DNA of 64,000 nucleotides from Octopus vulgaris. Lineage: Eukaryota. Location: the NCBI GenBank assembly GCA_951406725.2, contig OX597817.1, positions 99,572,001 to 99,636,000 on the forward strand, in the 5' to 3' direction. A program made the translations under genes and the position numbers. Positions 1-52,212 of this stretch are shown here, piece by piece. The first letter of the stretch is position 1. Every line of letters starts with the position of its first letter. Below the pieces are notes generated by a model. It saw only the letters and a list, made by a program, of their open reading frames with translations. It did not search any database and had not been told where the DNA came from.

Positions 1-432
1 CGACTGATGTAAATCGTGTCCCTCTCGCCTGCCACACTCGCCACTCACGCCGCCTCGAACCTTTGTACTGCTATTTCACGCCTGAAATAAATCGCTGGAT
101 AAACTTACACCTCTTGTCTGCTCCAGTTTTGCTGATTACGACCACAGTCCTTTTCAGGGCTAATTCAAGTCTGATCTGAATGCGATAACAGTCCTTTTTA
201 GGACTACTCTCAGATCCGATCTAATTGCGATAACAGTCCTTTTTAGGACTATTCTTGGATCGATCTAATTGCGATAACAGTCCTTTTTAGGATTACTCTC
301 AGATCCGATCTAATTGCGATAACAGTCCTTTTTAGGACTATTCTTGGATCGGATCTAATTGCGATAACCGTCCTTTCAAGGGCTACCCTCAGATCAGACC
401 AGAAGTAGTGGCCAAGAACCATACCCGCTACA
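1..432 (+). repeat. 5' LTR (3' part) of CsRn1-like element, with about 6 tandem 45-bp units
   Basis: Ends ...CCCGCTACA directly before the PBS; matches 11779-12194; unit ATAACAGTCCTTTTTAGGACTACTCTCAGATCCGATCTAATTGCG. Confidence 0.92.
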
Positions 433-434
433 AT

Positions 435-447
435 TGGTGACCCCGAC
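435..447 (+). promoter_or_regulatory. Primer binding site, tRNA-Trp
   Basis: TGGTGACCCCGAC is complementary to the 3' end of eukaryotic tRNA-Trp (..GUCGGGGUCACCA), 2 nt after the LTR end. Confidence 0.9.
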
Positions 448-540
448 AACGAATCAAGCGAACAGCATATCAAGAATCAGCATGGACACGCTAAAACCAA
501 CAACAGAGGCCGATATACAACCACGCAAGCAGCTTTAACC

Positions 541-1280
541 ATGAAGGTCCCGGTTTTTTGGTCCAACGACCCAGCCCTGTGGTTCGTCCACATAGAAGCA
601 CAATTCGCCGCGAATAGAATCAAGCACGCGAATAGAATCAAGCACCGCCAGGCACGGTGTCGTACGAAGCTTTCCGCAAGGAATTAATAATGCGAACTAC
701 CGCATCACAGCAGAGACGACACAACCAACTCGTATCTGCAGAAGAGTTGGGGGACAGAAAACCGTCCCAACTGCTGCGTAAAATGAGACAGCTGATGGAG
801 GGCCAACCGCTGTTAGAAGAGGTCCTGAAACGGCTTTTTCTACAGCGCCTGCCCTTACCAATGCAGGGCATTCTGGCGTCGACGAACGACACAGCAACCC
901 CGGAGGAATTTGCGCGTGTCGCAGATAGAATCGCTGAGGTGTCAAACCCCTTTTCTTCTGTGGCACAAATCAACCATCGGACGAACCCTTTCGAAGCGTC
1001 CTCAGACTCTACCTCCGAGATTGCAGAGCTGCGAGCTATGATCAGAGAGCAGGCTGGTCAAATTAAAGCCCTCACAAACAAGCTAGAAAACTGGACCTTG
1101 GAAACACACCGGCGGCGCAGCAACAGTTCATCAAGATCCACTCACCGTCGAAGATCCAGAAGTCCCAGTCAAAATCGTGTGTCTGGCAACATCTGCTGGT
1201 ATCACGCAGAATTCGGCGCACGGGCATCTAGGTGCAAGGCCCCGTGCTCTTTTCTGAATACCACCCAGGGAAACGGGTAG
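541..1280 (+). pseudogene. gag: Gypsy gag (CsRn1-type), disrupted near 610-660
   Basis: KVPVFWSNDPALWF start; LGDRKPSQLLRKM; C-terminal CWYHAEFGARASRCKAPC (CHCC). Confidence 0.9.
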
Positions 1281-1312
1281 ACCAGGGCCTTGCGACGACG
1301 TTCACCCCTGGT
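1268..1312 (+). promoter_or_regulatory. -1 ribosomal frameshift signal gag/pol
   Basis: G GGA AAC slippery heptamer in the gag frame, followed 6 nt later by ACCAGGG...CCCTGGT hairpin; pol ORF lies in the -1 frame. Confidence 0.8.
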
Positions 1313-4300
1313 ACTGAGAAAAAAAATCGTCTGTTTTTTATTAACGACCAAGCGACGGGCATCCGCTATCTCGTGGATACAGGAGCCCAGGTTAGTGTTA
1401 TTCCTGTTTCACTAGTCTCGGGCAAACGACATCCAACACCGTCCTTTCTGCAGGCAGTGAACCGATCATCAATTCCGACTTTCGGTGAGAAATCACTGAC
1501 CCTGAATCTAGGCCTGAGGCGTCGTTTCCAGTTCATTTTCATCGTGGCAGACCTACCGATTCCTATCTTAGGAGCCGATTTTCTCCACCACTTCAACCTT
1601 CTGGTGGACATGAAGAACCGGAGGCTTATTGACACCACCACAAACCTCACTGTGAGAGGTATATTTACCACGCAACCGACAGTGAGCCCTGTAATCTGTC
1701 AGTCAGAGCCTTCGTGTTACAACAGCATACTCCAGAAATATCCAGACATCACTCGCCCGGTATGTAAAGATGGACCCATTAAACATCGTATCACACATCA
1801 CATCGAGACACGGGACCACCCACAGCCGCCCGACCAAGGAGACTGCTTCCAGACCGATTGCGAATCGCCAAACAGGAATTTCAGCACATGCTGGACCTTG
1901 GAATCATTCGCCCTTCCTCCAGCAACTGGTCTGCACCTCTACACCTTGTTCCCCAAAAATCAGAGAACGACTGGCGACCATGTGGGGATTATCGTGCACT
2001 CAACAATACCACAGTACCCGATAATTACCCTGTACCTCACTTGCACGATTTTTCTGCCTCTCTGCAAGGCGCACGCATCTTTTCTAAGATAGATTTGGCG
2101 CGGGCATATAACCAGATACCTGTGGAGCCTGCTGATATTCCAAAGACGGCAATCACAACACCGTTCCGTTAATTCGAATTTCTGCGAATGCCGTTCGGTC
2201 TGCGCAACGCTGCACAAACTTTTCAACGGTTCATTGACACCGTATTACATGACCTACCTTTTGTGTACGCGTATATCGACGATGTACTAGTAGCAAGTAC
2301 TTCTAAGCAAGAACACGAGAAGCACTTGGATCTTCTGTTCCAACGTTTGGCCGAGTACGGCATCATCATCAACCCAAGCAAGTGCGTTCTCGGCGTTCCT
2401 TCACTGTCCTTTCTCGGGCACATGATTGATAAAGACGGTATTCGTCCACTTCCTGAGAAAGTAGACGCTATCCGCAATTTTCCAGCACCTACATCACTTC
2501 GGAAACTACGTGAATTCCTCGGTTTGGTTCATTTTTATAGGCGTTTCATCCCTCATTGTGCTGACGCAGCCCGACTCCTCACGGACCTTCTTCGCAACCG
2601 GACTCGGAAAAATGAAGACATAACGTTGAACGAGGAAGAATTAACATCTTTCAACGGTCTGAAAGAAATGCTGGCAAACGCTTCCATGCTCGTTTTCCCC
2701 AGGTCTGGCGCTCCTCTTTCGCTGCTAGTGGACGCATCAGACATGGGGGTTGGAGGCGTTTTGCAACAATATGTCGACGACGTTTGGCAACCCTTATCCT
2801 TCTTTTCTAAGCGGTTGCAACCCACTAAAACCAAATATAGTACGTTCGGCCGTGAACTCTTGGCAACCTACCTTTCAGTGAAGCATTTTCGTCACATGCT
2901 CGAAGGATCGGATTTCGTAATCTACACGGACCATAAACCACTAGTTTATGCGTTCCGTACCAAACCGGATCGACATTCACCGAGAGAACTTCGCCACTTG
3001 GACTTTGTCTCCCAATATTCAACCAATATTCGGCATATCAAGGGATCAGACAACGTAGCAGCTGACGCTCTGTCCCGAATCCAGCTGAATGCAATACATG
3101 TGGATTCAGGCATCGACCTTCATCAAATTGCAGCTGACCAAGAGACTGACGAAGAGTTTATCAAACTCCGAGATTCGCCATCCCTCAAGTTTCAGCAAGT
3201 TCCCATTCGTTCTTCTCCGGGACAAATTTGGTGCGACATTTCTACTGGTCATGAACGACCGTACGTACCACAGATGCATCGACAACAAGTGTACGGCACC
3301 TGGTCAGATGGTTGCTCCCATCTCTCCTCAGGACGTTCCAGACCCAGGATCATACGTACACCGACTTCGTCAATACATGTCTCACCTTGCCCCTGCGAGC
3401 ACCCGCCAACAGAACACGAACACACATGTACCTGCAGACATTAGTGATTGGACGCACGTTTTTGTTAGAAATGACACCATCTCCACTAATTACACTGTTT
3501 GTCTCACCCGGGAATCCGGGCTACACAGAAACTCATTTCTGCTCGTTTTGTGTGGACCAACATTAACAATGACGTGTGCGACTGGTCCAGGAGCTGCATT
3601 GCCTGTCAGAAATCCAAAGTCCACAGACACATCAAAACGCCACTCGGCACATTCGCGCAACCTGATGCACGTTTTCAGCATGTGCATATCGACATCGTCG
3701 GACCTTTACCATCATCACAGAACTGCACTCACTTGCTCACCTGCATTGATCGTTTTTCTATAAGTGATACCTCAGCGGAAACGGTGGCTAAAACTTTGGT
3801 TTTACACTGGGTATCACGTAATGGCGCCCCAGCGAATATAATAACGGACAGAGGACGCCAATTTGATTCCCATCTCTTCAGGGAACTGACTCGTCTGTTA
3901 GGATGTAAACACATCCGCACAACAGCTTATCACCCGCAAGCTAATGGTCTTGTGGAAAGATTCCATCGTCAATTGAAAGCTGCAATAAAGGCGTACCCAG
4001 ACAAGACCCATTGGTTTGAATACCTGCCACTCATCCTTCTTGGCATCCGTTCCACCGTTAAGGAACAATTTAGACACACACCTGCAGAATTAGTGTACGG
4101 CACCTGGTCAGATGGTTGCTCCCATCTCTCCTCAGGACGTTCCAGACCCAGGATCATACGTACACCGACTTCGTCAATACATGTCTCACCTTGCCCCTGC
4201 GAGCACCCGCCAACAAAACACGAACACACATGTATCTGCAGACATTAGTGATTGGACGCACGTTTTTGTTAGAAATGACACCATCTCCACTAATCTTCAA

Positions 4301-4552
4301 CCTCCATATTCTGGCCCTTACCGTGTCCTAGAAACACACCCAAAATATTTTGTCATCGATCAAAATGGTAAACAGAATTCTGTCAGTGTGGACAGATTAA
4401 AAAAAGCCATCATGGACACGATTACGGTTTCTACGCCAGAAACTCCAGCAGCTTGCATTCCCAGCAAACCACCTGTTTCATCTCCAGTCACAAGAAGTGG
4501 ACGACGTGTCCATTGGCCCGCCAAGTTGGCACAATACGTGAAATATCGTTAA
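1274..4552 (+). pseudogene. pol: Gypsy pol (protease, RT, RNase H, integrase), frameshifted
   Basis: LVDTGA protease; [11 protein letters not shown]; YIDD; VDASD and YTDHKPL; HPG..C..C zinc finger; TDRGRQF; GPY motif; split over ORFs 1232, 1858, 2188, 3499 and 4112. Confidence 0.95.
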
Positions 4553-4870
4553 AACCGAGTTTCACAAGCATGCTTCTTGCGAAACATTCCTATATTGTTT
4601 GTTTCTAATCTTTCCTGCACCATTTGCTCATGTTGTCATTGTCACGAAAAACATTATTTATTACAAACATTATTTATTACCGGTAGTTTCTCTGCCCGTG
4701 GGACTTTTTGTCACGCAATCCACAGGCAGACCAACCCAAATCCAACAGACTCATTCATCATTTTGTAGTTCATTTTTATCTGTTAATATATATATATATT
4801 TTCTTTTCTCTGACTCATCACTGTACGATTTGTCGCTCTTTTGTTGTACAAAAGATCTGGCAGAGAGCTA

Positions 4871-5024
4871 TGTACAGTCACCGGAAGTAACTTGCACGGA
4901 CACCGGAAATACATCTGCCATCAAAGCAACTACCCCCAGCGACTTGCCTGACCTTTCATTGGACAAAAGCTACCTACCTGCCATTCTATTGGACACTGGC
5001 TAAACATCACTGCTGTAAACATCA
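4871..5024 (+). repeat. U3 start of the 3' LTR of the CsRn1-like element
   Basis: TGTA start (inverse of the TACA LTR end) directly after purine-rich GGCAGAGAGCTA; two ATTGG (CCAAT) boxes; interrupted by Tx1. Confidence 0.65.
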
Positions 5025-6341
5025 CTGCAGTAGCCAAGACCTGGTCTTGGCAGTGGTTATCCCTGAAAGGTAGGGCGGAGGTAGCCAATGTGTTTATCGC
5101 ATCGGTGATCACCTACCGCCTTGCCGTCGTGCCTTGTCCGGATTCGTGGTTGACCAAGCTGGAAAGACAGCTCTTTCACTTCTTGTGGAAGGGCTCGAAA
5201 CCACTTGTGAGACGCTCTATTTGTTGTCAAAAACCGTTAAAGGGTGGACTAGGGATGCCGTGGCTAATGATGCGCAGAAATGCGCTGAGGTTAAGGCATT
5301 TGTGGCTCCATCTGGATGGTGAACGGGTATGGTCTCCGCTGGCGAAACAGATGTTTCCCAAGTTCACCAGTTTTGGTGGACGGGAAGCCTGGTATAATCG
5401 CAGATCGAAGTTGGATACATGGTATACGGAGTGTCGCAAGGCACTCCGACTATTCCGTCGCTCGGGCAACGCCTGCGGCAGTGGTTCTACCGCTGTTTTC
5501 TATAGAGGTTTTGTAGAGGCCGGTTGCGATGATACGTTAGAAGAAACCCTAGGTTTCGACGATAATCAGCTGGCCAGTCTGTTCCAACGTATATTCGGGC
5601 CGAGGACCCTGGATAATTTTCAGAAGTTCTTGGCTTGGCAGTGTTACCGAGGAGCCTTAATTGTTCGGGACAAACTCTCAAGGCACGGTTGGCCAAGTCA
5701 GCCCGACCTGTCCGAGGTGTGGGCAAGACAGGGAAACCGTCTTGCACGCGATCGTGCAGTGTTCGGAGGTGGCAGATATGTGAGTTTTTGCCGAACAACT
5801 GTTGTCAAGTGGAGGAAGAGTACAGCTATCGACTGAATCCATTGTAAAAATCAGCCCACCGGATTTCTTAACGAAAGAAGGTAAGAATTGTTTTCTCTCT
5901 GTGGTTTCAACTGCGAAACAGGTAGTATGGAAGACAAGGATGAAAGGAATGATAACAGGCGACTTCATCTCTGGTTCTAGTCTGGTGGAATATTTTAAAT
6001 TCCACCTGAAAAGACAAATAGAACTAGAGAGGAGGGGCCTGAGTAAGAAAGCGTTTGATGAAAGGTGGAAAAATGTGGTGAATAAAAGGTCCTTCATAAA
6101 TACGAGATAGGCCGTAAAAGAAAAAGAAAAAAACATATGGTCATGTGTCGTGGCGGGGATCGTGGGGTCCGTAGACCCGCCCCACTCCATTTGTAAATTT
6201 GTCCAAGTAATTGTATCATCATTCGAAAATTGTATAATTATCATCCAATTTTTAATCGACCCCAAAACGCATTTTAATGTAAAAATCATTCGTGATTGTT
6301 TTGTCCTCTCTGTGTAGCCCTTTATGGGTAATAAAGAAAAA
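5025..6341 (+). mobile_element. 5'-truncated Tx1/L1-clade LINE (copy A)
   Basis: High identity to 10475-11758; ORF2 C-terminus with zinc-finger remnant; AATAAAGAAAAA 3' end. Confidence 0.9.
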
Positions 6342-6566
6342 GCAGTTGGCTTTTGGGCACATGATATACTGCGGTGAGTTATTTATCTGTCTGTTTTTTA
6401 ATATTTTGAGAACGAATCTGTAAGTGTTGAACTTTTGTTGAAAATTGCTGTTTGAACTTTGAACGTCTGGTGTTTAACCAGAAAAATATTGTTATTCCCC
6501 TCCGTAAGGAGGGGAAAGTGCTGTGCGTTGTAGCATAACATAACACAAAAAACAAAAAAAAAATTT

Positions 6567-8081
6567 TTGAAAATGAACAAAGAAAATATTTTGTCTGAAA
6601 AAATGTTTGAAACACTATCTGACGAAGGTTCGCCTTCTAGAGAAACTGTAGTAGGTTCGCCTACATTGAAAGTTGTTAAAAGTTCGTCTTTAAAAGAAAC
6701 TGTAATAGACTCGCCCAAATTGAAAGTTGTTGAAGGTCCGCCTTCTGGTAAAGCTGTGAAAACAGCCAAAGTTGCTGAAGGTTCGCTTTCTGGTGAAGCT
6801 GTGAAAACAGACAAAGTTAGTGAAGGTTCGCCTTCCAAAGGAAAAAGTGAAACAAAAACTTACATCTTCGCAGCCGCCGCTGGAAGAAAAACTGAAGAAA
6901 TCAAAATGGAAGAGATCGATTTCGAAAATTATAAAACTATGTTCACAAGGGAGAGGAACAATATAAAAGCAACCCTCCCACAAGAAATTAAAGACAGTAC
7001 TCTAAAAAGAATAATAATATATAAATCATATATTATAAAAGAAAAGAAAATTGAGAAAGTGTCGAAGGAACAGGCGGAAAAATGCCTTCAACCAATATGG
7101 CGCGATGTAGACTACGTGAGGTGGGGGGAAAAGTACGCCACAATAGCGGTGTACTTCAAAGAGGAAGAAATGGCTAAAATGCATTCACTAACCCCGATCA
7201 AAACCAGTGACATAATCCTTCTACCTTCATATCTGGGGCGAAGAACATCCAAAATACGGATAGAAGATATTCCCCCAGAAATAGAATTGAAGTGGTTATT
7301 TTCAGCCCTATTAATAGGGCTGGAAAAGAAAATAAATGTAATAAACATCACTAAGATCCAAAAAGAAAACTGGAGAGGCTAGACGCTGCAAATAACAGTA
7401 CAGGCGGCCCCAGAAACTCTGGAAGAGGTCCCGGAGAACATCAATTTCGACGAGGAAATAAACTTGCGGGTGGTGGTGGAGGGGCGAAAGCCGAGATGTT
7501 ATGACTGTGGCGAAAAGGGCCACATCCGTGTGGAATGCCCCACCCGCAAGAAAGAGGAAGATAAAAGAAGGGCAGAAGAAGAGGAGAAGAAGAGCAAAGA
7601 GACGGAGGGAACAAAACAAAAGGAAGATGAAAATGCCTTCACGCTGGTGAGGCAAAAGAAAACACCCAAAAGAAAGAACGATGACGTAAACCCACCCATC
7701 CCATGTACAAACAAAAAGAAAACAAACACACAGGGGGAAAATCTACCCCACCCAACCACAAAAAAAAGAAAAAAAGAGAAGACCCCCAGCCCAACCCGAA
7801 CCAACAGTGCCGAGCAATTCCCTTCCCTCCCAAACTACTCCCCGTGTTCCCCCCATCATACTCCCCGCTGTCCTCCCCATCACCCCCACAAAGCCCAAAA
7901 AAAGAAAATAATAGAAATCGAGACAGTATTCGTCTCTATAAACAAAGCAAATGACAGGTTAACAAAACAAATAGACGATATATCAACGGCACACAAAATC
8001 CAGACACATAGGGTACTCCCCAAAAATGTCGATGTTTACAAAATGGACAGGATGAATTTTAATATTATAAGAGAGGAGTGA
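6567..8081 (+). pseudogene. Tx1 ORF1 (gag-like, CCHC zinc knuckle), one in-frame stop at 7380
   Basis: ORFs 6567 and 7464 are in the same frame; CYDCGEKGHIRVEC; K/E-rich tail. Confidence 0.85.
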
Positions 8082-8171
8082 CCGGGGGACATTAATGGTC
8101 CGCGACTCGACCTTCACGAGCGGACTTCCCCCCATGACCAACAGAAAAGAAAAACAACTAAAAGGTAGGTA

Positions 8172-11100
8172 ATGTCTCGTATATATGTAGGGTGTATAAA
8201 TGTACGTGGCCTGATGTCGAACTGGAAGCAAGGGCGCCGCCTAAATGACATCAGGTCACGAGATTTAGATGTTGTTGCCACAGAAACCTGATTAAAGGGG
8301 CAAAGAGATATGCTCCCGCTGCTCGGCGGTTACGAGGGAATTATCTCTCCAAGCCGTTCGTCCGGCGGAAGCGGTGTGTTGGTCCAGTGTAAAAAGAACC
8401 GGGTTTCTGAGAAAAAGTTGATTTTTTCAGATCCAGAAGGTAGACTGGTCGTCGTTGATTTGACGTTCAGTAGTCGTAAGACAATCAGGCTGGTTGCGAT
8501 TTACGCACCCTATAAAATAGGGGAAAAAAGTGATTATTTTCGGAACCTTGGAAAGTTTCTGAGTACATCGCACCCCTTAGTAATTTTAGGAGACTTCAAC
8601 ACAATCTGCGATGCGCGGGTAGACTGTGAGGGCTCGCGTACAGATAGGAAGGAAATGCTTGCTTCCAGGATTTACTAAGACGTTTCGAGCTGGTAGATCC
8701 ATATAGACTGGAACATCCGAACGCTCCATTGTGGACATGGTCAAGCAGCGACGGATCTTCCAAGTCATACATAGACAGGATACTAATTAAAAAAGTAGAT
8801 AGAAAACTAGCTAAGAGTCCACAGCTCCACATGGTCAGCTCCAGTGACCACAAGATGGTCACCTGTAGGCTAGACATAGATAAGACGAATAGAGGTCCTG
8901 GTTACTGGAAACTTAATACGTCCCTTTTGGCGATTAAGGAGTACAGTGACAGGATTAGGTTAATGATTCAGAGGGCCATGACCGGATCCATTATTAACGA
9001 CAAATGGTGGTATTCCCTCAAGCGAGCCATCAGATACGAGTCTATTAGGTATAGTATAGATCTAGTAGCTAGAGAGGCTAGAAAGGAATCAGCACTAGTT
9101 AAGGACTTAGAGGAAGCAATACGAACTGGCACTGCGGCTCAGGTGAAGGTCAAGAGGCTGGTTTTAAACCAGCACTTCGAAGCCAAACACATGGGTTGCA
9201 TTGTCAGGGCTAGACAACTTGCAATGGGGAGCGAAGGAATCAAGGCCGCAGGATGGGCCCGACTGGTGGAAGCCCAACGTGGCAACGATGCTACAATTCG
9301 ATCTTTGACGAACCAACAGGGTAAGTTGATAGACGAGCCCGAGGAGATGTGCGAGGCTTTTCAGGACCACTTCGCCCAGCTCTTAGGGGGGAGTGGCGGA
9401 CCGGATTGGAGGAGGGGCCAAACGGACCTCTTCGACGAGCTGCCGCGCCTCTCAGAGCGGGACGCGAAGTGTAGTGAGGAGCCGATCACGCCTGGGAAAG
9501 TAATAGAGGCCATGGCTAACTGCGGTGCAGGTAAGGCGCCGGAACTGGATTGTCTACCCTACGAGCTTTACAAGAGTATGCCGGACTTGTTCGGGGACTT
9601 ACTGGCGAACGTCTACGCGAACTGGCAACGGAATGGGTTTATTCCCAGATCTGTGCGTCGGGGAGTGGTGACACTAGTCAGGAAGGACCAAAACAAGGGG
9701 TATGTCATTGATAATTTTAGGCCCATCACTCTGCTTAATGCAGAGCTGAACATTTTGGCCAAAGTGTTATCTAACAGATTGGCGCATGTCGCGGATGGAC
9801 TAATTGGGAAGGCACAAACGTGTGCCGTACTAGGCAGGTCCATTCAGGATAATCTCCATCTAATTAGATACACTATAGAGGGAATTAATAGTGATCCCGG
9901 CAAGAGAGGGGCAGTGGTCCATTTAGACCAATCAAAAGCCTTCGATAGGGTCGACCATCATTACCTGGTGTCCGTTCTGGCTCAGTTCGGTCTGGGTCTT
10001 GGCTTCCTCGGGTGGATCATTGAAATGTACGACAACGTCGACTCGGTAGTTCGGGTGAACGGCTTTATTTCTAAGCCGTTCAGAGTCAAATGCTCGGTTC
10101 GTCAAGGATGCCCACCCTCCCCGCTTTTGTATGTAGTGGCTATTGAGCCGCTACTGCGAAAGCTGAGTGGCATCCCGAGGCAGCCAGGTCGTGGAATGTC
10201 GGTTTCGGCGTACGCGGATGACATCACTATCATCGTGACCGAAGTTGACCTCCTACGTAAAGTAGGCAAGGCCATAGAGGTATACGAGACGGTGACAGGA
10301 GCAAAAGTTAATCGTGAAAAGTCAGTCAGCTTGCAGCTCGGCACCTGGAGAGGCAAGTCGATGCCTTCAGACAGCGTCGTGGGACGTTGGACGAGGGCCC
10401 GATTAAGTTGCTCGGGGTTTGGTTCGGATCAGACCTCCAAATAGAGAACTGAGGCGAGGTATCGAGCAGGGTGGCTGCAGTAGCCAAGACCTGGTCTTGG
10501 CGGTGGTTATCCCTGAAAGGAAGGGCGGAGGTAGCTAATGTGTTTATCACATCGGTGATCACCTACCGCCTTGCCCGGATTCGTGGTTGACCAAGTTGGA
10601 AAGACAGCTCTTTCACTTCTTGTGGAAGGGCTCGAAACCACTTGTGAGACGCTCTATTTGTTGTCAAAAACCGTTAAAGGGTGGACCAGGGATGCCGTGG
10701 ATAATGATGCGCAGAAATGCGCTGAGGTTAAGGCATCTGTGGCTCCATCTGGATGGTGAACGGGTGTGGTCTCCGTTGGCGAAACAGATGTTTCCCAAGT
10801 TCACCAGTTTTGGTGGACGGGAAGCCTGGTATAATCGCAGATCGAAGGCGGGTTCATGGTACACGGAGTGTCGCAAGGCACTCCGACTATTCCGTCGCTC
10901 GGGCAATGCCTGCGGCAGTGGTTCTACCGCTGTTTTCTATAGAGGGTTTGTAGAGGCCGGTTGCGATGATACGTTAGAAGAAACCCTAGGTTTCGACGAT
11001 AATCAGCTGGCCAGTCTGTTCCAACGTATATTCGGGCCGAGGACCCTTTTCAGAAGTCCTTGGCTTGGCAGTGTTACCGAGGAGCCTTAATTGTTCGGGA

Positions 11101-11539
11101 CAAACTCTCAAGGCACGGTGGCCAAGTCAGCCCGACCTGTCCGAGGAGTGGGCAAGACAGGGAAACCGTCTTGCACGCGATCGTGCAGTGTTCGGAGGTG
11201 GCAGATATGTGAGTTTTTGCCGAACAACTGTTGTCAAGTGGAGGAGGAGTACAGCTATCGACTGAATCCATTGTAAAAATCAGCCCACCGGATTTCTTAA
11301 CGAAAGAAGGTAAGAATTGTTTTCTCTATGTGGTTTCAACTGCGAAACAGGTAGTATGGAAGACAAGGATGAAAGGAATGATAACAGGCGACTTCATCTC
11401 TGGTTCTAGTCTGGTGGAATATTTTAAATTCCACCTGAAAAGACAAATAGAACTAGAGAGGAGGGGCCTGAGTAAGAAAGTGTTCAATGAAAGGCGGAAG
11501 AATGTTGTGAGTAAAAGGTCCCTCATGAATACGAGATAG
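8172..11539 (+). pseudogene. Tx1 ORF2 (APE endonuclease, RT, zinc finger), several frameshifts/stops
   Basis: INVRGL, LGDFN, SDHK, GPGYWKLN, FRPITLLN, LDQSKAFDRVDH, RQGCP, YADD. Confidence 0.93.
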
Positions 11540-11758
11540 GCCGAAAAGGAAAAAAGAGAAAAAAAACATAAGGTCAAGTGTCGTGGCGGGGTTCGTGGGG
11601 TCCGTAGACCCGCCCCATTGTCTAGTTGAATGTCTTGTCATCCGAAAATGTATAATCATCATTAAATTTTTAACTGACGCCAAATGCATAATTATGTAAA
11701 AATCATTCGTGATTGTGTTGTCTGTATTTGTTGAACAGAAATGGTGAATAAAGAAAAA

Positions 11759-12194
11759 GCAGTTGGCTTTTTGGCACTCGACTGATGTAAATCGTGTCCC
11801 TCTCGCCTGCCACGCTCGCCACTCACGCCGCCTCGAACCTTTGTACTGCTATTTCACGCCTGAAATAAATCGCTGGATAAACTTACACCTCTTGTCTGCT
11901 CGTCATTTCAACTACTGTTTTCGTCTGTCCAGTTTTGCTGATTACGACCACAGTCCTTTTCAGGGCTAATTCAAGTCTGATCTGAATGCGTTAACAGTCC
12001 TTTTTAGGACTACTCTCAGATCCGATCTAATTGCGATAACAGTCCTTTTTAGGACTACTCTCAGATCCGATCTAATTGCGATAACAGTCCTTTTTAGGAC
12101 TATTCTTGGATCGGATCTAATTGCGATAACCGTCCTTTCAAGGGCTACCCTCAGATCAGACCAGAAGTAGTGGCCAAGAATCATACCCGCTACA
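11759..12194 (+). repeat. Distal part of the 3' LTR of the CsRn1-like element (5 x 45-bp units)
   Basis: Matches 1-432; ends CCCGCTACA; followed by CA/TA microsatellite. Confidence 0.92.
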
Positions 12195-12319: not shown

Positions 12320-15300
12320 TGTTACGCCGCACGCAGGCCAACGATGCCACCACGGGTCCTCACACAAACAGCTCGCAGTTTGCTAGCCCCGAGAAGCTCG
12401 CGTGCGACGACGCTCAGTAAAGCAGGAATTCACTCCGAATGGGGGGAGCAGCGAAACGCAGCCAGTAGAGCCAACAACAATAACAAAAATAACACACAGG
12501 CGTTGCGTTGTCAAAGTTTGTTTTTTTAACAAAACATTCAACAATTCTTAGGAAAGTTCTTTTTTGGTATCTTTTCCTTTTGATGGACGGAGTTTTCTAT
12601 AAAATTCGAAGAATTAAACTACGTTAAACTTACAAATTACAATTTTGTTTTCAATTTTGTTTACAATAATGTTTTCTTTTGACACATTCTACCAGTATAC
12701 GAAGTTTCAAATTGTTTAGTTAACTAGAAAATTCCGTCCATCAAAAGGAAAAGATCCCTTTTTTTTTCTTTCCTTAGTTCCTTAAAAAAACATTTAACAT
12801 TTAACAACACAAAGTTCTTTTCCTTTTTCTTTTGTTTTAAACACAAAGTTCGTTTCTCAAAACATTTAGCACAGTCCTTTTTCTTTCTTTTCTTTTTTAC
12901 TTTTCCCTTCTTTTAAAAGCAGTCAACAACTCAGTTCTTTTCTTCTTTCTTAACGTCACAGGGTTTTTTCTTTCTTTTTTTTAAACATTCAACACCACAA
13001 AGTCTTCTCATCTTTACTAAAACATTTAACAACACAAAGTTTGTTCCCCTTAAAACACATTTACCGGTGACACTTTCTTCTTTCCTCAGCCCATGCGTAG
13101 CATCCTGCTACCTCCTTGCCATTTGTTCAGTTTTCCACTCGTTCCATTGCCAGGCGTTCCGTTCCGGTCTCCCTCTCCAACTGTCCCTCGCACCTCAGCG
13201 ACACCCGGATATACGGAGCCCTCCAGCCATTGGCAAAAAGGGAGATAATGCTTCTTTCATTTGTCTTCATTTTTTTTCAAGCGTTCGTATCACTACCCCT
13301 TCTCTAGAGTTTTGTCGTCGCGACAAAAGCACACAACATTTGTAACTCCTGACGACTTTCTTAACAGGTGGGCCCAACCCCTGAAGGCCTGCTCCAGCTG
13401 AACTGGCAAGACCCATGGTACTTCCACAGATGGTTGGCATGCACAATTTTTGGAGAAGACCTCCTGCCTTCTCGAATCCGGTTCGTCACATCGGACAGGC
13501 GATTCATCACGGTGTAAAGTCCCTCCCATGGACTCTACAGCTTCGGAGACTGCCCTCTCTTCCGCCGGGTGTTATGAAACCACACTTCATCACCCTCCTT
13601 AAAGTCGACCTCACTAGCCCTGGTGTCATGCCAATGCTTCATCACCTCACCCAAAAATTTCAGAGCCTCTTTAACTTGGTGTACCTCAGACAGCGTCTCT
13701 TGCAGATGTTTCACATAGCTGGAGGTTTCCCTGGGTAGCTCCTTCCGCGGTGGTCTTCCCATCAACAGATCAACTGTGAGCTTTACTTCATGGCCCAACA
13801 TCAGCTTTGCAGGTGTATAGCCGGTGGTCTCATGCCGAACGATAAGTGAGCAATAACGCAGGTAGCTTCAAATCCCATTCCAACTGTCCTTGTACACAAT
13901 ATTCGGCTAGTTCTTGTCCTAGTGTCCAGTTAAACCTCTCCACCATCCCGTCCAACTGTGGTCTCATTGGGGTTGTTCTGGTCTTCTTAATCCCCAACAG
14001 CTTACAACATTCCTGGATTCAAAGTTCCTACCTTGATCAGAATGCAACTCCTGGGGCACCCCGACAGAAGTACTGGTCTACTAACTCTTGCGCCATAAAT
14101 GTGGCCTCCTGATCACGGATGGCAAAGGCCTCAGGCCACTTTGTGAAGTAGTCCATGGTCACACATATGTACCTATTTCCTCTTTCTATGAGTGGCAACG
14201 GTCCAGCATTATCCACAGCTACCCTTTCCATGGGCACACCCACCTGGTATAATTGCAGAGGGACACACCCCTGCTTCCTCGGTCCCTTCTTGGCGCAGCA
14301 TACATCACAAGATCGACACCATTCCTGGACGTCCTGATGCATGCCTGTCCAATAGAATCTGTGCCGCAGCCGATTCAACGTTTTCTTTACCCCCAGATGT
14401 CCACTTGTAATTTGGTTTTGAGCTTCTTCCAGCAGCTCGGGTCTCATCTTCTTGGGTATCACCAATTGCTAATACTTATTCAGGCCATTGGGTGTCTCCC
14501 AGCACCTCTCAAGCAGCCCGTCGTTCAGACGAAGAAGGTCCCACTGGCTCCAGTAGCTCTTAGTTTCAGGGTTGGACCTGGATACCTCCTGCCAAGATGG
14601 TTTGGCTGCTTCCTGCTGCAGCCACTCTGCTACTGGCCCCAAGTCGGCATCTTCCAGCTGTCTCTTCTGTACTTCTCCAGTTGCTACATATCCAGTCACT
14701 GTAGTATTTTTGCACTTTTTACTGTGCTCTTCTCTTCCTGCACAATGCTTGCAGTCCGGTTCACAAGGATGACAACTCAAATTGTCAGCATTACCATGTA
14801 CCCGCCCCGGACGGTGCTGTACCTCATAGTTGTGTTGGTCCAGTTTCCCTAGCCAGCGTGCTAATTGTCCCTCCAGGTTCTGTAGTGTCCTCAGCCACTT
14901 GAGTGCCGCATGGTCCGTTCTGATAGTAAAGTGGGAACCATACAGGTACGGATGGAAAAAGTCAACACTCTTCATCACCGCCAAAAGCTCCTTACGGGTT
15001 ACACAGTAGTTTCACTCGGGTGGACTAAGCTTTTTACTGTAATATGCCACCACATATTCCTTGTCGCCCTTCCTCTGAGACAGTACTCCTCCAATACCAT
15101 GGCTACTAGCATCACAGTCCAGTAAGAAAGGCTTGCTTAGGTCTGGATATGGCAACACCGGAGAACTCACTAGCACCTGTTTGAGTCCATCAAAAGCGCC
15201 CTGTGTCATGGCAGACCACTCAAACCTTTGGCTCTTCCCCAGTAGCTTGTGCAATGGTGCAGCCACTGTAGCAAAGTCTTTTACAAAGAGCCTGTAATAG

Positions 15301-15929
15301 GTACACAGTCCAAAGAAACTCCTCAACTCCTTTACACAAGGAGGGACCAGCCAATCCTTCATGGCGGCCACCCTCTCTGGGTCAGTACGGACACCGTCTT
15401 CGCCCACAATGTGTCCCAGGTATCTTACTTCCTTCTGGAACAGACAGCACTTCTTTGCATTCAACTTGAAGTTTGCAGTTCAAAACCACTCAAATACCCC
15501 CGATAACCTCTCCAGTTCTTGATCAAATGTTCGACCAAACACTATGACGTCTTCAAAATAGATGAGGGCGGCCTGCCAGTGTAGGCCCTCCAGTACCCGG
15601 TCCATAAGACGCTCGAAAGTTGCAGGGGCGTTACACAAGCCGAATGGCATCACATTGAACTGCTACAAACCCGTCCGTACGAAGATACAGTCTTTTCCCT
15701 ATCTTTTTCGGCAACCTTGATTTGATGGTATCTGGCTTTCATATCCAAGGTAGAGAACTACCGAGCCCCCACCAAAGCATCAAGCGTGTCATCAATTCTC
15801 GGCAGAGGATATGCATCCTTAACTGTCACTTCATTGAGCGCTCTTTAATCTACGCAGCATCTCACTGTGCTGTCTTTCTTCTGCACAAAAACAATGGCTG
15901 ATGACCAGGGGCTGTTCGACTTTTCCACT
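12320..15929 (-). mobile_element. Gypsy LTR retrotransposon (3' half: RT-RH-IN, PPT and 3' LTR), decayed
   Basis: LTR 12320-13292 (TGTTAC...TATCA); PPT 13293-13307; minus-strand LDCDAS, RTDHAAL, GHLGVKKT, WCRSCDVC, MDYFTKWPEA. Confidence 0.9.
12566..12758. mobile_element. MITE with about 33-bp TIRs inserted in the Gypsy LTR
   Basis: GGTATCTTTTCCTTTTGATGGACGGAGTTTTCTA ... TAGAAAATTCCGTCCATCAAAAGGAAAAGATCCC; internal AAACTTCGTATACTGGTAGAATGTGT block shared with the 28126 family. Confidence 0.85.
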
Positions 15930-18900
15930 TGTTATGCATTGTTTCATTCTTGATGGGATGATAGACAACTCAATGAAGGCATTGTTATTGTTTTACGTGT
16001 TTATTTTGCTTAACCTGTTATGAACTGTCAATATACAGCAGAGTGATACACATATCCGCCTTTGACGCAGCTCATACTGTTTACTAACAAATAGTGCCAA
16101 TAGTGAGGATGCATTCATACATACGTATACCTACGTATACACATGGATATGAATGTGTAACATCCCTTCTTCTTGAAAAAAATAAAGGGGTCTTTTGACA
16201 GTGAAGAAAAAATATAAGTAATCTCCCTTGCTCTAATGGATTGTCAGCGCAAGGGTGGCAATCCTGCAGCAGAAACCATGAGATTATTCTGTCCACTCAA
16301 GTGGTTTTCTGCTTTGTAATCTAGCAGAATTAGTTATTTATCTTTTCTTTTTCTTTTTCTTTTCTCTTTAACGGTATCGAACCGGTGGTAGAATGTTCAA
16401 TCTCAATCTGGTGGATCTTGTGCTCTGCACTGGTGTCTGAGGTGTGTTGTTGGGCTGCTGATGAGTGGTTGGTGCTCTTTGGGGTGATGATTCTGTGAAT
16501 GTTGTCACTGATGTGGCAGGTGTTGTACACGTTATCCTCGACAGCTTTGGTGTTGGGCGGATGTGGGCCCTATTGCGTCTCAGTTGCCTACCAGATTCCG
16601 TTTCTATTATACACTTGTGCTAGGATCCATGTTTCAGTTATGGGATCTTGAGTATGCATATGTTGTCCTCCAAGTATCTCAGGTAAGTATTATGCATGTT
16701 TGTTGTAATATATCTGTAATTGTTCTTGAGTGGCTGCTAGCTTTGCCCTTGTCTCTTCCTGGTCAATAGGAGGTTGAATCTTAGTTGGCAGGGTGGTTTT
16801 GTACTTCCTGCCATTCAGCATTTCTGCTGGGGATTTCATGTCAGCCCTCAGTGGTGTCACTCGTAGGGACAGAAGTGCCAGGTGTGGGTCTTCCTTAGTC
16901 TCTCTGCATTTGACTAGTGTTCTCTTCACTGTCTGCACCTGTCTTTCTATAAATCCATGACCTTTGGGGTAGTGTGGAGATGAAGTTGTAATATTGAACC
17001 CATACTCATCGGCTAGCTTTTTGAATTCTTGCAATGTGAACTGGGTTCTATTGTCACATATGATCTGCTCTGGTATTCATTGCTCTGCTAGAAGTCCTCG
17101 AGCCACTGTAGTGATTGTTTTGGCTCTCAGGTCTTTCACTTTTCTCACAAATGGAAATTTGTGAGTAGTAGCAGACCATTATCAAATACCATTCTTGGCT
17201 CTCTGTGAACAGATCTACTCCAATAGCTTGCCATGGCCTTCTAGGGATATCACTGGATATCATTTCCTCCTTTTGTTGTGAATTTCTGTACTTTTGACAG
17301 ATGTGGCATGTAGAAACTATATTTTCTATGTCTTTGTACATGCCTACCCAATATACAGCTGACTAGGCTCGGAGCTTGCATTTCTCCATTCCTAGATGCC
17401 CTTGGTGAATCTTGTCAAGAATCTCTTTTTGTATTGATTTAGGTATAATTATTCGGGATCCAGCCATCAGGATTCCATTCTCCACTGATATATCATCATG
17501 GATGGCCCAATATTCACGAATGAGGGGTTGCACCTGATGTCTCTTCTCTGGCCACCACTGAATCACCATCTGAGTAAGGAGCTGGAGTTCTTCATCTTTG
17601 CTGGTCTCCTCTTTGATTTGTGCCAGCTTTGTGTTTGTTACATTTACAATGTGGTAGACCTTTATGGTTAGTCCTCCCATCTCCTGTTTATCATGTGAGG
17701 ATAGTCTGGAAAGAGCATCTGCTAATATCAGGTCTTTTCCTGGCTTGTACCTGATATCGTAGTCGTACTTTTGGATCCTCAACAGTAATCTTTGCAGTCT
17801 GGCTGGTGCTTTCATGAGGTTTTTTCTGTGTATTTGTTCTAGCAGGCGATGGTCTGATTCAATATTGAATTGTCTGCCATACAGGTATGTATGGAACTTT
17901 TCACAGCCATATACTACTGCCAGGAGTTACCTTTCGATATTTGCATACCTTGTCTCTGTAGGTGAGAGAGCTTTCGAGGTATATGCAATAGGTTTACCTA
18001 CCTGTATCAATGCTGCGCCAACTCCTCTCATAGAAGCATCGACTTGGAGTGTTATTGGTTTGCGTCTGTCATAGTACTGCAGAGTTGTCTCCTTACTGAT
18101 GAGCTTTTCGATTGCTTTGAAATCCTGTGTGTGTGAAGCACACCAATCAAACTCTACGTCATCTTTGTTTAGTTCTCGGAGATTTGCAGTGTGATTGGCC
18201 AGCTTGGGTATGAAGGCTCCCATGTAGTGGATGAGTCCCAGGAAGCTCCTGAGTTCCTTCTTATCTTTGGGTTCTTTGATGTCTCTGATGGCTTCCACTT
18301 TAGCGGGGTCTGGTTTCACTCCCTCTGAAGAGTATATAATTCCAAAGAATTTGCACTCCTTTGCTTTTATCACATATTTGTCTGCATTGAGTTTGATACC
18401 TGCTTGTCAGGTTTTCTCCATGGCTTCATGTAAATTGAAGTCACGTGTGATTTCATCCTTGCCATGCACTTGGATGTCGTCTGCTATCCCAATTGCTCCC
18501 TTGCAGCCTTGGTAGGTCTCATCTATTTGGCGCTGGAAAACATCTTGGCTCACCTTCAATCCAAATGGGAATCGGTATCTGCCAAATGGTGTGTTGAAGG
18601 TAGTGAGCATGGACGATTCTTTGTCTATCTCTACATTCCAGTACCCATTACTGGCATCCAGTTTGCTGAATATCTTGGATCCAGCTAATGATGGTGTGAT
18701 TTCTTTTTAATGCCTAGTTAAGATCCCTTGGGTCGAGGCATATCCGTAGGGTACCATTGGGTTTTTTTTTATTACAATTGAATTCACCCAGTCTGTTGGT
18801 CATGTCACTTTGGTGATTATTTCTTTTTTTTTCCATTCTGTCCAACTCTGCCTTCAGCTTCTCTTTTAGTTCTAGAGGAATGCGGCAAGGTGGGTGAACA

Positions 18901-33606: not shown

Positions 33607-34626
33607 CCCTTTCGTTACTATATTTCTGACCAAAATACACCCCTTATGTGTTTTTTATTTATCAATATATTAATGATATTTTTGGAAGATAATTGAATGA
33701 AATGTTCTCAACCAATTCTATACTATAATTTTTGTCACAAAGTGACTCTAATTGCAGGTAGATACAGGTACATTCAACAAAATATAAAATTATTAAAATT
33801 TTGTTCAAACATCGCTATAGAAAATGGGTTATTAGCTAATATTCAATTGGGTATACAACAAAATTTTACGATAGAATTTGTTATTCTGGGTAACTTTCTG
33901 ATACCCATAATAATATTTATGGCAAAATAATCTTAATTTCATTTAAGGTTGTGGGAAACCACTAACTATCCTTTCTTTCGTTTTGTTTACATTTAGCGTA
34001 ACGGTTCGTTTCCGCCGTAATGATTTCAAATAGGCTCATTCGAAAAAGTAAAAAGAAATAGTCTAAGGCTTTACTCTCCTGGGAAAGTCTGTGGCTTGGT
34101 CCAGTTTCTTCAGAAAAATCACCGAAAGAAACAGTTTTTCAATTTTCACTCCATTCAGGTGCCAATTCATTTTCTTTATCGCTGTCGGAGCTCTCGGATT
34201 CACTGTTTTCACTTTCGGAAAATGAAACATCAGATTCATTATCAAATACCAAGTGCTTTTTTTTTTTCAGTCATAGAGTTAGATTTATGAAGGTCTTCAG
34301 TAGAAAATCCTTCGAATTCTACCTCGCTGCTTGATATGATGAAATTCGTATCCATTTTTTGTCAGAATTACAAAGTTTGAAAACACAATAGGAACAAATT
34401 TTGGAAAAAAATCTCCCAAAATTCACGGAATTAAAATTACACTTCGATTGTTGTACAAAACTGTAGATGAACTGTTTACGAAGTATAATCACGTGTTTTC
34501 ACGAATGTAATAAAGAGATTTGCTCTGATATTCTCATTTAAATATGAATAGGTAAATAAGGGCGGGTTTGGGCGGTTTGGTCACATTAACCAAAATTTTT
34601 TTCGGGCGGCTTTGGTAACGAAAGGG
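33607..34626 (-). mobile_element. Non-autonomous piggyBac element
   Basis: CCCTTTCGTTAC...GTAACGAAAGGG TIRs; TGAA/TTAA target; minus-strand acidic transposase N-terminal remnant MDTNFIISSSEVEFEGFSTEDL from 34355. Confidence 0.85.
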
Positions 34627-49810: not shown

Positions 49811-52212
49811 TATCATCATCGTTTAACATCCGCTTTCCATGCTAGCATGGCTTGGACGATTTAACTGAGGTCTGGCAAACCAGATGGCTGCACTAGACTC
49901 CAATCTCATCTGGCAGAGTTCCTATAGCTGGATGCCCTTCCTAACACCAACCACTCCAAGAGTGTAGTGGGTGCTTTTACGTGCCACCGGCACGAGGGCC
50001 AGTTTGGTGGTACTGGCAACAGCCACGCTCAAATGGTGCTTTTTATGTGCCACCTGCACAGGAGCCAGTCAAGCGGCACTGGCAACGACCTTGCTCGAAT
50101 GTTTTTTCACGTGTCACAAGTACAAGCGCCAGTAAGGCGATGCAGGTAACGATCACGCACGAATGGTGCTTTTTATTTGCCATTGGCACGGAAGCCAGCT
50201 TGTTGCTCTGGCAACGATCACGCTTGTATGGTACTTTTAGCGCTACACTAGCACAGATGCCAGTCATCGAATTTGATTTCGATTTCACTTGCCTCAACAG
50301 GTCTTCACAAACAGAGTTTAGTGTCCAAATGAAGGAAATGTATGCATAAGTGGGCTGGTTACACCCCTAGCATAGGCCACAAGGTTATGGTCTCACTTGA
50401 GCTTGCTGAGTCTTCTCAAGCACAGCATATTTCCAGAGGTTCCGGTCACTAGTCATTGCCTCGGTGAGGCCCCATTTTTGTAGGTCATACTTCACCACCT
50501 CATCCCAGGTCTTCCTGGGTCTACCTCTTCCACAGGTTCCTGCAACCGCTAGGGTGTAGCACTTTTTCACACAGCTACCCACATCCATCCTCACCACATG
50601 GCCATACCAGCGCAGTTGTCTCTCTTGCACATCACATCTGATGCTTCTTAGGTCCAACTTTTCTCTCAAGGTACTAACACTCTGTCGAGTATGCACATTG
50701 ACATTACACATCCATCGGCACATACTGGCTTCATTCCTTGTGAGCTTACGCATGTCCTCAGCAGTCACGGCCCATGTTTTACTGCCATGTAGTATGGCTG
50801 TTCGTACACATTCCTCATACAGCCTACCTTTTACTCTGCGTGAGAGGCCCTTTGTCACCGGCAGAGGTAAGAGCTCTCAGAACTTTGCCCAGGCTATTCT
50901 TATTCTAGCAGCTACACTTTCAGTGCACCCTCTCCTGCTACTGACTTTGTCACCTAGGTAACAGAAGCTATCAACTACTTTTAGTTTTTCTCCCTGGAAT
51001 GTGGCGGAAGTTGTTCTCTGTACATTTTCAGTGTTTATTGCTCCTGAGCATCTGCCACATACGAAAACTATCCTTCCAGTTAGCCTTCCTTTGATATTGC
51101 TGCACCTTTTACGTGTCCATAGCTTACACTAGGTACATATAGATACCAACGCCTTTTCTACAGATCGAGTGGGGCCATCTACCTGAAGGGATTTGTGGTT
51201 TGCCTCTGCCCTCCTACTTATTAGGACTTTGGTTCTAGCCCTTTGATTCTAATCCTTGTTTCCATACTTGAAACTTCTCCTCTAGTTCTGTTAGTGACTC
51301 AGCAGTTAGAGCAAGGTTGTCAGCATAGAGGAGCTCCCAGGGGCATCCTGTCTTGAATTCCTCCATTATTGCCTGGAGGATTATGATAAATAGGAGGGGG
51401 CTAAGGACTGAACCTTGGTGGACCTCTACCTCTACCCAGAATTCTTCACTGTACTCGTTGCCAACCCTCACCTTACTGACAGCGTCCCTGTACATGGTTT
51501 GCACAGCTCTCACTAACCATTCATCTATCCCTAGTTTCCTTATTGACCACCAGATAAGGGATTGGGGGACCTTGTCAAAGGCTTTCTCCATGTCAACAAA
51601 AACCAGGTACAGAGGTTTATCTTTGGCTAGGTATTTCTCCTGCAGCTGTCTAACCAGAAATATAGCATCAGTGGTGCTTTTCCCTGGCACGAACCCAAAC
51701 TACATCTCATCTAAACTGACTCTCTCCCTAATTAGTTGGGCTATGACCCTCTCTGTGACCTTCATTACCTGATCCAACAGCTTGATACCTCTAATTATTT
51801 GTATCTAAAGCGTCACCTTTACCTTTGTAGCAGTTGACTATTATGCTGCTACACCAGTCATTGGGTATGACTCCTTCGTGTATCACCTAGTTAACTATAC
51901 GGGTGACTAGGCTATAGCCAACACTGCAAGGTATTTTGAGCATCTCTGCAGTAACTCCTGATGGATCGGGGGCTTTCTCTGCCTTCATACTCTTGATTGC
52001 TTTATCTACCAAGGTACTGTCAACTCGGATAGCTGGTCCCTCTGTTGGGTTGGCATTCGGCAGACTCTCTTTCTCCCATTCATTTTCTTTATTCAGCAAA
52101 CTTTCATAGTGGCGTCTCCAAACCTCTCTCTTTGCAGCCTCATTTAGTACAAGAGAACCATCATCCATGTGGACACATTTCTCTCCTACAACATCACAAT
52201 TCTCTCTCACAC
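49811..52212 (-). mobile_element. RTE-clade LINE, 5'-truncated (RT + 3'UTR)
   Basis: STTDAIF, VDMEKAFD, HQGSVLSP, LLYAD(N), LRWYGHV, RGRPRKTW; (CAT)n tail. Confidence 0.93.

What the first reader, a model, noticed from the sequence alone, without database searches (positions are those of the whole stretch)
5025..11777. Tx1 LINE inserted twice at the same site in a Gypsy LTR: candidate LTR-initiator-targeted retrotransposon
Seen: two Tx1 copies in tandem both end AATAAAGAAAAA|GCAGTTGGCTTTT.GGCAC. That 19-mer flanks full-length copy B as a TSD and continues into the LTR. The copies have diverged 3'UTRs and different indels (about 10575 and 11047), so they look like independent insertions rather than a tandem duplication. 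The target holds a CAGTT initiator-like motif downstream of U3 CCAAT boxes. Known: many Tx1-clade LINEs are sequence-specific (Xenopus Tx1L in a DNA transposon; others in snRNA or tRNA genes). Inference: this family targets an LTR transcription start site, where it could borrow the U3 promoter and parasitise the Gypsy element.
Basis: partly seen in the sequence, partly recalled or inferred. Interest (0 to 1): 0.8.

Follow-up and report, generated by a model that had tools for sequence, protein, structure and literature searches.

The report
Two LINEs stacked in one LTR
Two dead copies of one jumping gene sit one behind the other at the same spot in another jumping gene's end-repeat, which fits a site-choosing habit already known for this group, but whether the family really seeks that spot, or its start-of-transcription signal, is not shown.

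Summary
The structure is real. A CsRn1-like Gypsy 3' LTR (4871-12194) is split by LINE copy A (5' part missing, about 5032-6341), a 19-mer, full-length but broken copy B (6361-11758) and the 19-mer again. The 19-mer is probably native LTR. Separate source elements are likelier than local duplication: A and B differ by 43/278 at the 3' end against 3/389 between the LTRs, with a synonymous excess in ORF2 (p=0.03). Family-wide LTR targeting is not shown: in one public run 43 contigs sharing A's tail continue into mixed flanks, probably from a sister family, and relatives far outweigh the LTR in depth. The narrow A/B lineage is rare and could still be specific. No empty site was seen, and the initiator and promoter-borrowing claims have no RNA support. 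Tx1 families preferring LTR retrotransposons, tandem insertions around a TSD and transcription from the target are in print (PMC4494074). This scan also noted Tx1 homing to Gypsy LTRs on other DNA. New member of a known kind; interest 0.27.

The parts
1..432 (+). 5' LTR of the Gypsy element, R/U5 part only (the window begins just after the place of the 19-mer); 45-bp tandem array at 144-395
434..447 (+). primer-binding site TGGTGACCCCGAC (match to tRNA-Trp recalled, not looked up)
480..4555 (+). decayed gag-pol of a CsRn1-like Gypsy element: CHCC knuckle at 1194, protease, RT, RNase H, integrase with GPY near 4313; broken in several places, with a 203-bp internal duplicate (3288-3490 / 4092-4294)
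4856..4870 (+). purine-rich tract before the 3' LTR
   Evidence: sequence
4871..5026 (+). left (U3) part of the 3' LTR, starts TG; reverse CCAAT boxes at 4958 and 4988; 15-bp unit twice at 5001-5032
5025..5031 (+). 7-nt overlap CTGCAGT shared by LTR, start of the 19-mer (GCAGT) and LINE; 5' junction of copy A
5032..6341 (+). LINE copy A, 3' 1.3 kb only: end of ORF2 (one frame change near 5689, TGA at 5781), 3' UTR, AATAAA and short A tail
6342..6360 (+). 19-mer, left copy of B's target-site duplication (1 mismatch)
6361..11758 (+). LINE copy B, full length (5398 bp), dead: 5' UTR about 210 nt, ORF1 from 6573 with one CCHC knuckle, ORF2 8172-11539 with APE endonuclease, RT and C-terminal CCHC knuckle; TGA at 11210 shared with A
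11759..11777 (+). 19-mer, right copy of the duplication, continuing into the LTR
11778..12194 (+). right (R/U5) part of the 3' LTR; AATAAA at 11864; 45-bp array at 11950-12157; ends CA

Best explanation
Two separate target-primed insertions by a low-copy lineage of a Tx1-type LINE family landed at the same nick in the U3/R zone of a CsRn1-like Gypsy LTR, because this lineage's endonuclease prefers that sequence. Shown: the layout, the 19-bp repeat around B, the same 3' junction twice, and the mosaic divergence. Inferred: B came first and left a 19-bp duplication, which kept an intact target on its left. A then entered that left copy and was joined, or later shortened, through the 7-nt overlap. 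Part of the two copies was afterwards homogenised by gene conversion or unequal exchange, which spread one stop codon to both. Recognition is taken to be of DNA sequence. A link to the LTR's transcription start is possible but is not needed to explain the locus.
For: Same 3' junction twice, far above chance. A's 5' junction falls on GCAGT, the first 5 letters of the 19-mer, and that motif occurs at only 5 of 5398 positions in B. The LTR's own 15-bp repeat runs into GCAG. A versus B differ by 43 of 278 in the last part and 17 of 473 in the first, against 3 of 389 between the LTRs (Fisher p=2e-14 and 0.006). ORF2 differences show a synonymous excess: pS 0.041, pN 0.016, p=0.03. The narrow lineage is rare in 4 of 4 runs (A-like UTR about 3-14 times an assumed single-copy depth, LTR about 16-58 times), so all its copies could fit in this LTR family (rough). 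Precedent: sequential tandem insertion around a TSD and Tx1 families preferring LTR retrotransposons (PMC4494074); dimers by double insertion (10.1101/158386). Distant relatives in Patella and Metynnis carry near-consecutive locus tags, as tandem arrays would. The minus-strand letters after the inferred nick read AGTG, against AGTT for Tx1L; this is a weak likeness.
Against: Only one locus; no empty site and no clearly independent insertion were seen. In run X1, 43 contigs leave A's tail at 6339 into mixed sequence (agreement 0.47, consensus unlike the 19-mer). The tail bin is 8-48 times and the RT peak 43-320 times deeper than the LTR, so the wider family is not confined to this LTR. A and B share a TGA where 66 of 98 scorable relatives have Trp, inside a tract with 4 differences in 527. 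CTGCAGT occurs once in B, exactly at A's start, as a microhomology deletion would also predict. The endonuclease hairpin loop has 9 residues like L1, not 11 like Tx1L. The 160-nt contig with the same tail/19-mer/head junction shows no substitution in the 19-mer, so it seems to keep its variant letter and is likely the same event by descent.
Confidence: 0.5

Rival explanations
1. One insertion only. B inserted with a 19-bp duplication; unequal exchange at the duplication made a tandem pair; the first copy lost its 5' part by deletion between the two CTGCAGT motifs; parts of one copy were later overwritten by conversion from other family members. No target preference is needed.
For: Shared stop codon and 527-nt tract at 0.8% difference, like the LTR pair. 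A starts at the only 7-nt match in B. The same junction appears at single-copy depth in other runs, apparently with the same variant letter.
Against: Needs at least two extra conversion tracts (5' part 3.6% with 9 synonymous of 17 changes; 3' part 15%), each from a different donor. An A-type 3' UTR exists as a distinct form in 3 of 4 runs by the joint row.
Confidence: 0.2
2. Two insertions, but through a loose preference for a short motif plus a large family and a local hot spot; the LTR is one of many sites and is not sought out.
For: Mixed flanks behind A's tail in 43 contigs of X1, and relatives far deeper than the LTR. L1-length endonuclease loop. Tandem dimers are common even for LINEs without strict targets.
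Against: The 39 contigs that diverge before 6305 share one other upstream UTR (agreement 0.82), so the mixed flanks probably belong to a sister family. For a lineage of only tens of copies, a double hit at one base by a short motif is very unlikely (inference).
Confidence: 0.2
3. One event that copied an existing tandem: a read-through RNA from another locus (A tail, 19-mer, B), or a template jump, was inserted into this LTR. The middle 19-mer would come from the donor locus.
For: The middle 19-mer differs by 1 letter from the right one. X3 shows two contigs at 6399 and two A-type UTR contigs, which hints at two places with this junction.
Against: The RNA must pass A's AATAAA. One mismatch is also what ordinary decay gives. 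The donor junction would itself need two hits at the same LTR site.
Confidence: 0.1

Closest known systems
Crocodilian Tx1-8_Crp and Tx1-4_AMi (Kojima 2015, PMC4494074; section 15 read, supplements not available)
   Same: [quoted passage not shown]
   Different: Vertebrate and in the Keno-related group; the place within the LTR elements could not be seen. Here the host is probably an octopod, the target is a CsRn1-like LTR, and preference is not established.
SINEU-3 / Tx1-Mar in Mariner-N4_AMi (PMC4494074, sections 14, 16 passage, 20)
   Same: Tandem copies sandwiching a TSD, read as sequential insertions; transcription from the flanking target proposed
   Different: Target is a DNA transposon; preference there was counted (313 of 347 copies), here it rests on one locus
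Xenopus Tx1L in Tx1D (PMC1950540, passages and section 17)
   Same: APE-type LINE inside another transposon; nicked strand continues AGTT there, AGTG inferred here
   Different: Specificity shown by nicking assay; 11-residue hairpin loop versus 9 here; DNA-transposon target
R1 and other double-insertion dimers in Drosophila (10.1101/158386, passages)
   Same: Head-to-tail LINE copies separated by one TSD, later open to unequal exchange
   Different: R1 targets rDNA; jockey-type dimers form without a strict target
CsRn1 lineage of Gypsy (features from PMC3630058, passages)
   Same: CHCC gag knuckle, GPY motif, PBS of the Trp type; best named pol relatives are from flatworms, sea cucumber and a nematode at 50-61%
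   Different: Decayed copy; the 4-bp TSD could not be checked

Membership tests
Tx1 clade (L1 group) | ORF2 with N-terminal APE endonuclease | tested here: met
   PF03372, E=1.5e-7 on 8292-8675
Tx1 clade (L1 group) | RT of the L1 group | tested here: met
   PF00078, E=1.5e-26; best solved relative is LINE-1 ORF2p at E=5e-39, against R2 at E=4e-20
Tx1 clade (L1 group) | C-terminal CCHC knuckle in ORF2 and a CCHC knuckle in ORF1 (feature recalled) | tested here: met
   CPRC...H....C aligned to relatives; zf-CCHC, E=8e-5 in ORF1
Tx1 clade (L1 group) | RT groups with named Tx1 elements in a phylogeny | tested here: inconclusive
   Quick tree of 57 of 59 chosen rows holds no named Tx1 or L1 reference. 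The query sits with unnamed invertebrate-type relatives, apart from fish and turtle rows. The label Tx1 rests on architecture.
Target-specific LINE family (criterion of PMC4494074) | More than 20% of flanks are one kind of sequence | tested here: inconclusive
   2 of 2 junctions in the window, same locus; 43 tail-sharing contigs in X1 have mixed flanks but are probably a sister family; 2656 loose-end rows were not shown
Target-specific LINE family (criterion of PMC4494074) | Independent 5'-truncated copies at the same target | not testable with these tools
   No whole genome held; pattern scans empty
Tx1L-like endonuclease | 11-residue specificity hairpin loop | tested here: not met
   9 residues in B and in the Argonauta row P0127; 11 in 33 of the 40 matched close relatives (65 examined). 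Not a clade-defining trait.
   Motif position only: 67 and 37 nt after the reverse CCAAT boxes, 105 nt before AATAAA; U3/R borders need RNA
CsRn1 lineage (Gypsy) | CHCC gag motif | tested here: met
   CX2HX9CX3C at 1194
CsRn1 lineage (Gypsy) | GPY motif at the integrase end | tested here: met
CsRn1 lineage (Gypsy) | PBS complementary to tRNA-Trp | tested here: inconclusive
   PBS seen at 434; its match to tRNA-Trp is recalled, no tRNA was looked up
CsRn1 lineage (Gypsy) | 4-bp TSD | not testable with these tools
   Left end lies outside the window

The most novel reading that the evidence does not exclude
Inside a large octopod Tx1-type family with mixed insertion sites, one small lineage has newly gained strict specificity for the initiator of a CsRn1-like LTR. 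It is transcribed from the LTR's U3 promoter and cuts off the Gypsy RNA. This would be a recent switch from loose to strict targeting at a promoter element, with loose sister families at hand for comparison.
Probability: 0.12. Interest if true: 0.6.

Novelty: new member of a known kind. Interest (0 to 1): 0.27.

Why it matters
If the narrow lineage proves specific, it adds a mollusc example and a defined 19-bp duplication site to the list of Tx1 targets. With high-copy relatives that have mixed flanks, it would offer a close pair for asking how an APE endonuclease gains specificity. If the site is also the LTR start site, it would be a clear case of one retroelement taking over another's promoter. 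As it stands it is one decayed locus showing a habit already described.

Tried and rejected
No whole genome was held, so copies could not be collected directly. Exact pattern scans for the target found 0 hits in metagenome contigs and 0 in viral contigs. The ORF2 alignment found 80 kept loci of 448 confirmed in metagenomes, only 25-45% alike; none matched the LTR parts. Viral contigs gave none. No RNA holder was listed, which says nothing on expression. The read layout showed no row at 11759, 6342 or 6360, but 2656 loose-end rows and 185 joint rows were hidden, so neither an empty LTR nor its absence is shown. 4 of 24 listed runs were laid. The 19-mer region does not fold better than shuffles (z=-0.33). 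Rfam gave 3 weak histone stem-loop matches in the 45-bp LTR repeats, below the curated score, and no snRNA, tRNA or 5S target, so a hidden RNA-gene target was rejected. The Atlas gave no hit of 0.9 or more for the first part of ORF1. A 36-nt likeness to A's tail at 34243-34278 was inspected and is not a LINE end. The careful tree did not finish; the quick one is reported. Five-term paper searches joining Tx1 with LTR, start site or parasitism returned 0 papers; broader ones led to PMC4494074. Passages of PMC13282606 and PMC11203168 mention Tx1 in octopus and gastropods without targets. Earlier-finding look-ups by sequence and place were empty. The two LTR pieces were scanned for motifs separately, so spacing across the site is counted, not modelled.

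Full report
Observation. The window opens in the 5' LTR of a Gypsy element (1-432), followed by a primer site, decayed gag-pol with protease, RT, RNase H and integrase, and a 3' LTR that starts TG at 4871 and ends CA at 12194. The two LTRs share 386 matches, 3 mismatches and 2 indels over the part that can be compared. CHCC and GPY motifs fit the CsRn1 lineage as described in PMC3630058 (passages). The 3' LTR is interrupted by LINE copy A (to 6341), a 19-mer (6342-6360), copy B (6361-11758) and the 19-mer again (11759-11777). These are the only 2 matches in the window with up to 3 mismatches, against 0.03 expected.

What the LINE is. B carries an ORF1 with one CCHC knuckle and an ORF2 with APE endonuclease, RT and a C-terminal knuckle. 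Its best solved relative is LINE-1 ORF2p. It is dead, with several stops and frame changes. The closest named proteins are from Argonauta hians, 46% and 61% alike over part of the query, so the host is probably an octopod; this is inference. A quick tree of 57 of 59 chosen rows puts it among unnamed relatives, apart from fish and turtle elements, but holds no named Tx1 reference. The label Tx1 therefore rests on architecture.

Is the 19-mer LTR or LINE? Three points favour LTR. First, A's 5' junction lies on GCAGT, the 19-mer's first five letters, a motif found at 5 of 5398 positions of B. Second, the LTR's own 15-bp repeat runs into GCAG. Third, 43 contigs of run X1 that share A's tail go on into other sequence, so the 19-mer is no fixed part of such tails. 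An empty LTR was not seen: there is no genome, the pattern scans were empty, and the read tables hid most rows.

One insertion or two? They are decay and decide nothing. The substitutions are more telling. A and B differ at 17 of 473 sites in 5025-5510, 4 of 527 in 5511-6045 and 43 of 278 in 6046-6341, against 3 of 389 between the LTRs. ORF2 up to 6024 shows 9 synonymous and 12 non-synonymous changes (pS 0.041, pN 0.016, p=0.03), all 9 synonymous ones before 5511; the split between the two tracts is not significant on its own (p=0.10). This fits two source elements that diverged while active. Against a clean story, the middle tract holds a TGA in both copies (5781, 11210) where 66 of 98 scorable relatives, of 119 examined, have Trp. 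Conversion or exchange between the neighbours, or a shared defective source, is needed. Also, CTGCAGT occurs once in B, exactly at A's start, so A may have been shortened by a microhomology deletion rather than at insertion.

Does the family target this LTR? I laid contigs of 4 of 24 listed runs, from four species labels, on 6190-11990 at 85% likeness. Depth is a sum over contigs and, as the tool warns, no copy number, so the following is rough. I took 62, 52, 7 and 7 as single-copy depth, from shared joints. On that basis the LTR stands at about 58, 24, 16 and 22, the RT peak at thousands, and the bin with A's tail at 8-48 times the LTR. The wider family cannot be confined to this LTR. In X1, 43 contigs leave the tail at 6339 with agreement 0.47 and a consensus unlike the 19-mer. 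However, 39 contigs join that tail from one other upstream UTR (agreement 0.82), so these are probably a sister family. The A-like UTR itself stands at only about 3-14, and B's 5' UTR is covered by one or two contigs of single-copy depth at 6399-6411. The narrow lineage could therefore still be specific. One 160-nt X1 contig spans tail, 19-mer and B head at single-copy depth with 4 substitutions and 2 gaps. The same 4 substitutions appear in the other three runs, whose contigs seem, from their distances to the end, to reach the 19-mer too. None of the 4 lies in the 19-mer, so the contig appears to keep the variant letter. I read it as the same event by descent, or a DNA-level copy, and not as independent support.

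Is the site the initiator? It lies 67 and 37 nt after two reverse CCAAT boxes and 105 nt before AATAAA, so it is in the zone where U3 meets R. But GCAGTT matches the TCAKTY consensus quoted in PMC3601003 at 5 of 6 places, CAGTT occurs 1.28 times per kb in the window and again at 11930, and that paper notes that such borders need RNA data (passages). At this locus A, with its own AATAAA, lies between U3 and B, and B has a 5' UTR of about 210 nt. The endonuclease hairpin loop has 9 residues like L1, not 11 like Tx1L, though PMC1950540 (section 17) shows that the loop alone does not set specificity. Promoter borrowing is untested.

Mechanism. Most likely (0.5): two target-primed insertions at one nick by a lineage that prefers this sequence, B first with a 19-bp duplication, A into the intact left copy, then partial homogenisation. 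Rivals: one insertion with local duplication, deletion and conversion (0.2); loose motif preference in a large family (0.2); copying of an existing tandem by read-through or template jump (0.1).

Comparison with what is known. PMC4494074 (passages; sections 14, 15, 20; supplements not available) reports Tx1-8_Crp and Tx1-4_AMi as preferring specific LTR retrotransposons. It reads tandem SINEU-3 copies around a TSD as sequential insertions and proposes transcription from the flanking target. 10.1101/158386 (passages) shows that double insertion commonly makes such dimers. Searches tying Tx1 to an LTR start site gave 0 papers, in a library that lacks most subscription journals and Repbase reports. 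This scan's own unchecked notes describe Tx1 LINEs homing to a Gypsy LTR spot and to an LTR TATA box, and a plant LINE near an LTR TATA box, in other genomes; I did not test them.

Verdict. A real, decayed tandem insertion that probably reflects target preference: a new member of a known kind. Family-level targeting is open for the narrow lineage and unlikely for the wider family; the initiator claim is unsupported. Interest 0.27. The boldest open reading, a recent switch to strict targeting of an LTR initiator, has probability about 0.12 and would merit 0.6.

Noticed in passing
window 1: The window's first base corresponds to 11779, two bases after the 19-mer. If this is a contig start, the assembly may break at the same site in the 5' LTR, perhaps because of another insertion there.
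   Followed up: no
window 5001-5032: A 15-bp direct duplication ends exactly at A's 5' junction; it may be LTR-native or a scar of the insertion.
   Followed up: partly
window 1-432 vs 11779-12194: The LTRs differ by only 0.8%, while the nearest B-like pieces listed from the four runs differ from B by about 2-6%. LTR conversion or a second locus could explain the gap.
   Followed up: partly
window 144-395 and 11950-12157: U5 holds a 45-bp tandem array with 5.6 versus 4.6 copies; weak Rfam stem-loop scores there.
   Followed up: partly
window 3288-3490 / 4092-4294: A 203-bp piece of the integrase region is present twice, 99% alike, inside the Gypsy element.
   Followed up: no
window 6723-6835: ORF1 of B has a 45-bp repeat (2.5 copies) whose number varies among contigs.
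   Followed up: no
window 13800-15700 and 17700-18600, minus strand: Two further decayed Gypsy-type pol regions, about 30-32% alike to the first.
   Followed up: no
window 58367-61463: Another LINE of a different group: CCCH-finger ORF and RT, about 26% alike to the relatives of B. A further RT fragment lies at 51352-51792 on the minus strand.
   Followed up: partly
proteins P0283-P0292 and P0293-P0306: Distant relatives in Patella caerulea and Metynnis hypsauchen carry runs of near-consecutive locus tags, suggesting tandem arrays of such LINEs.
   Followed up: no
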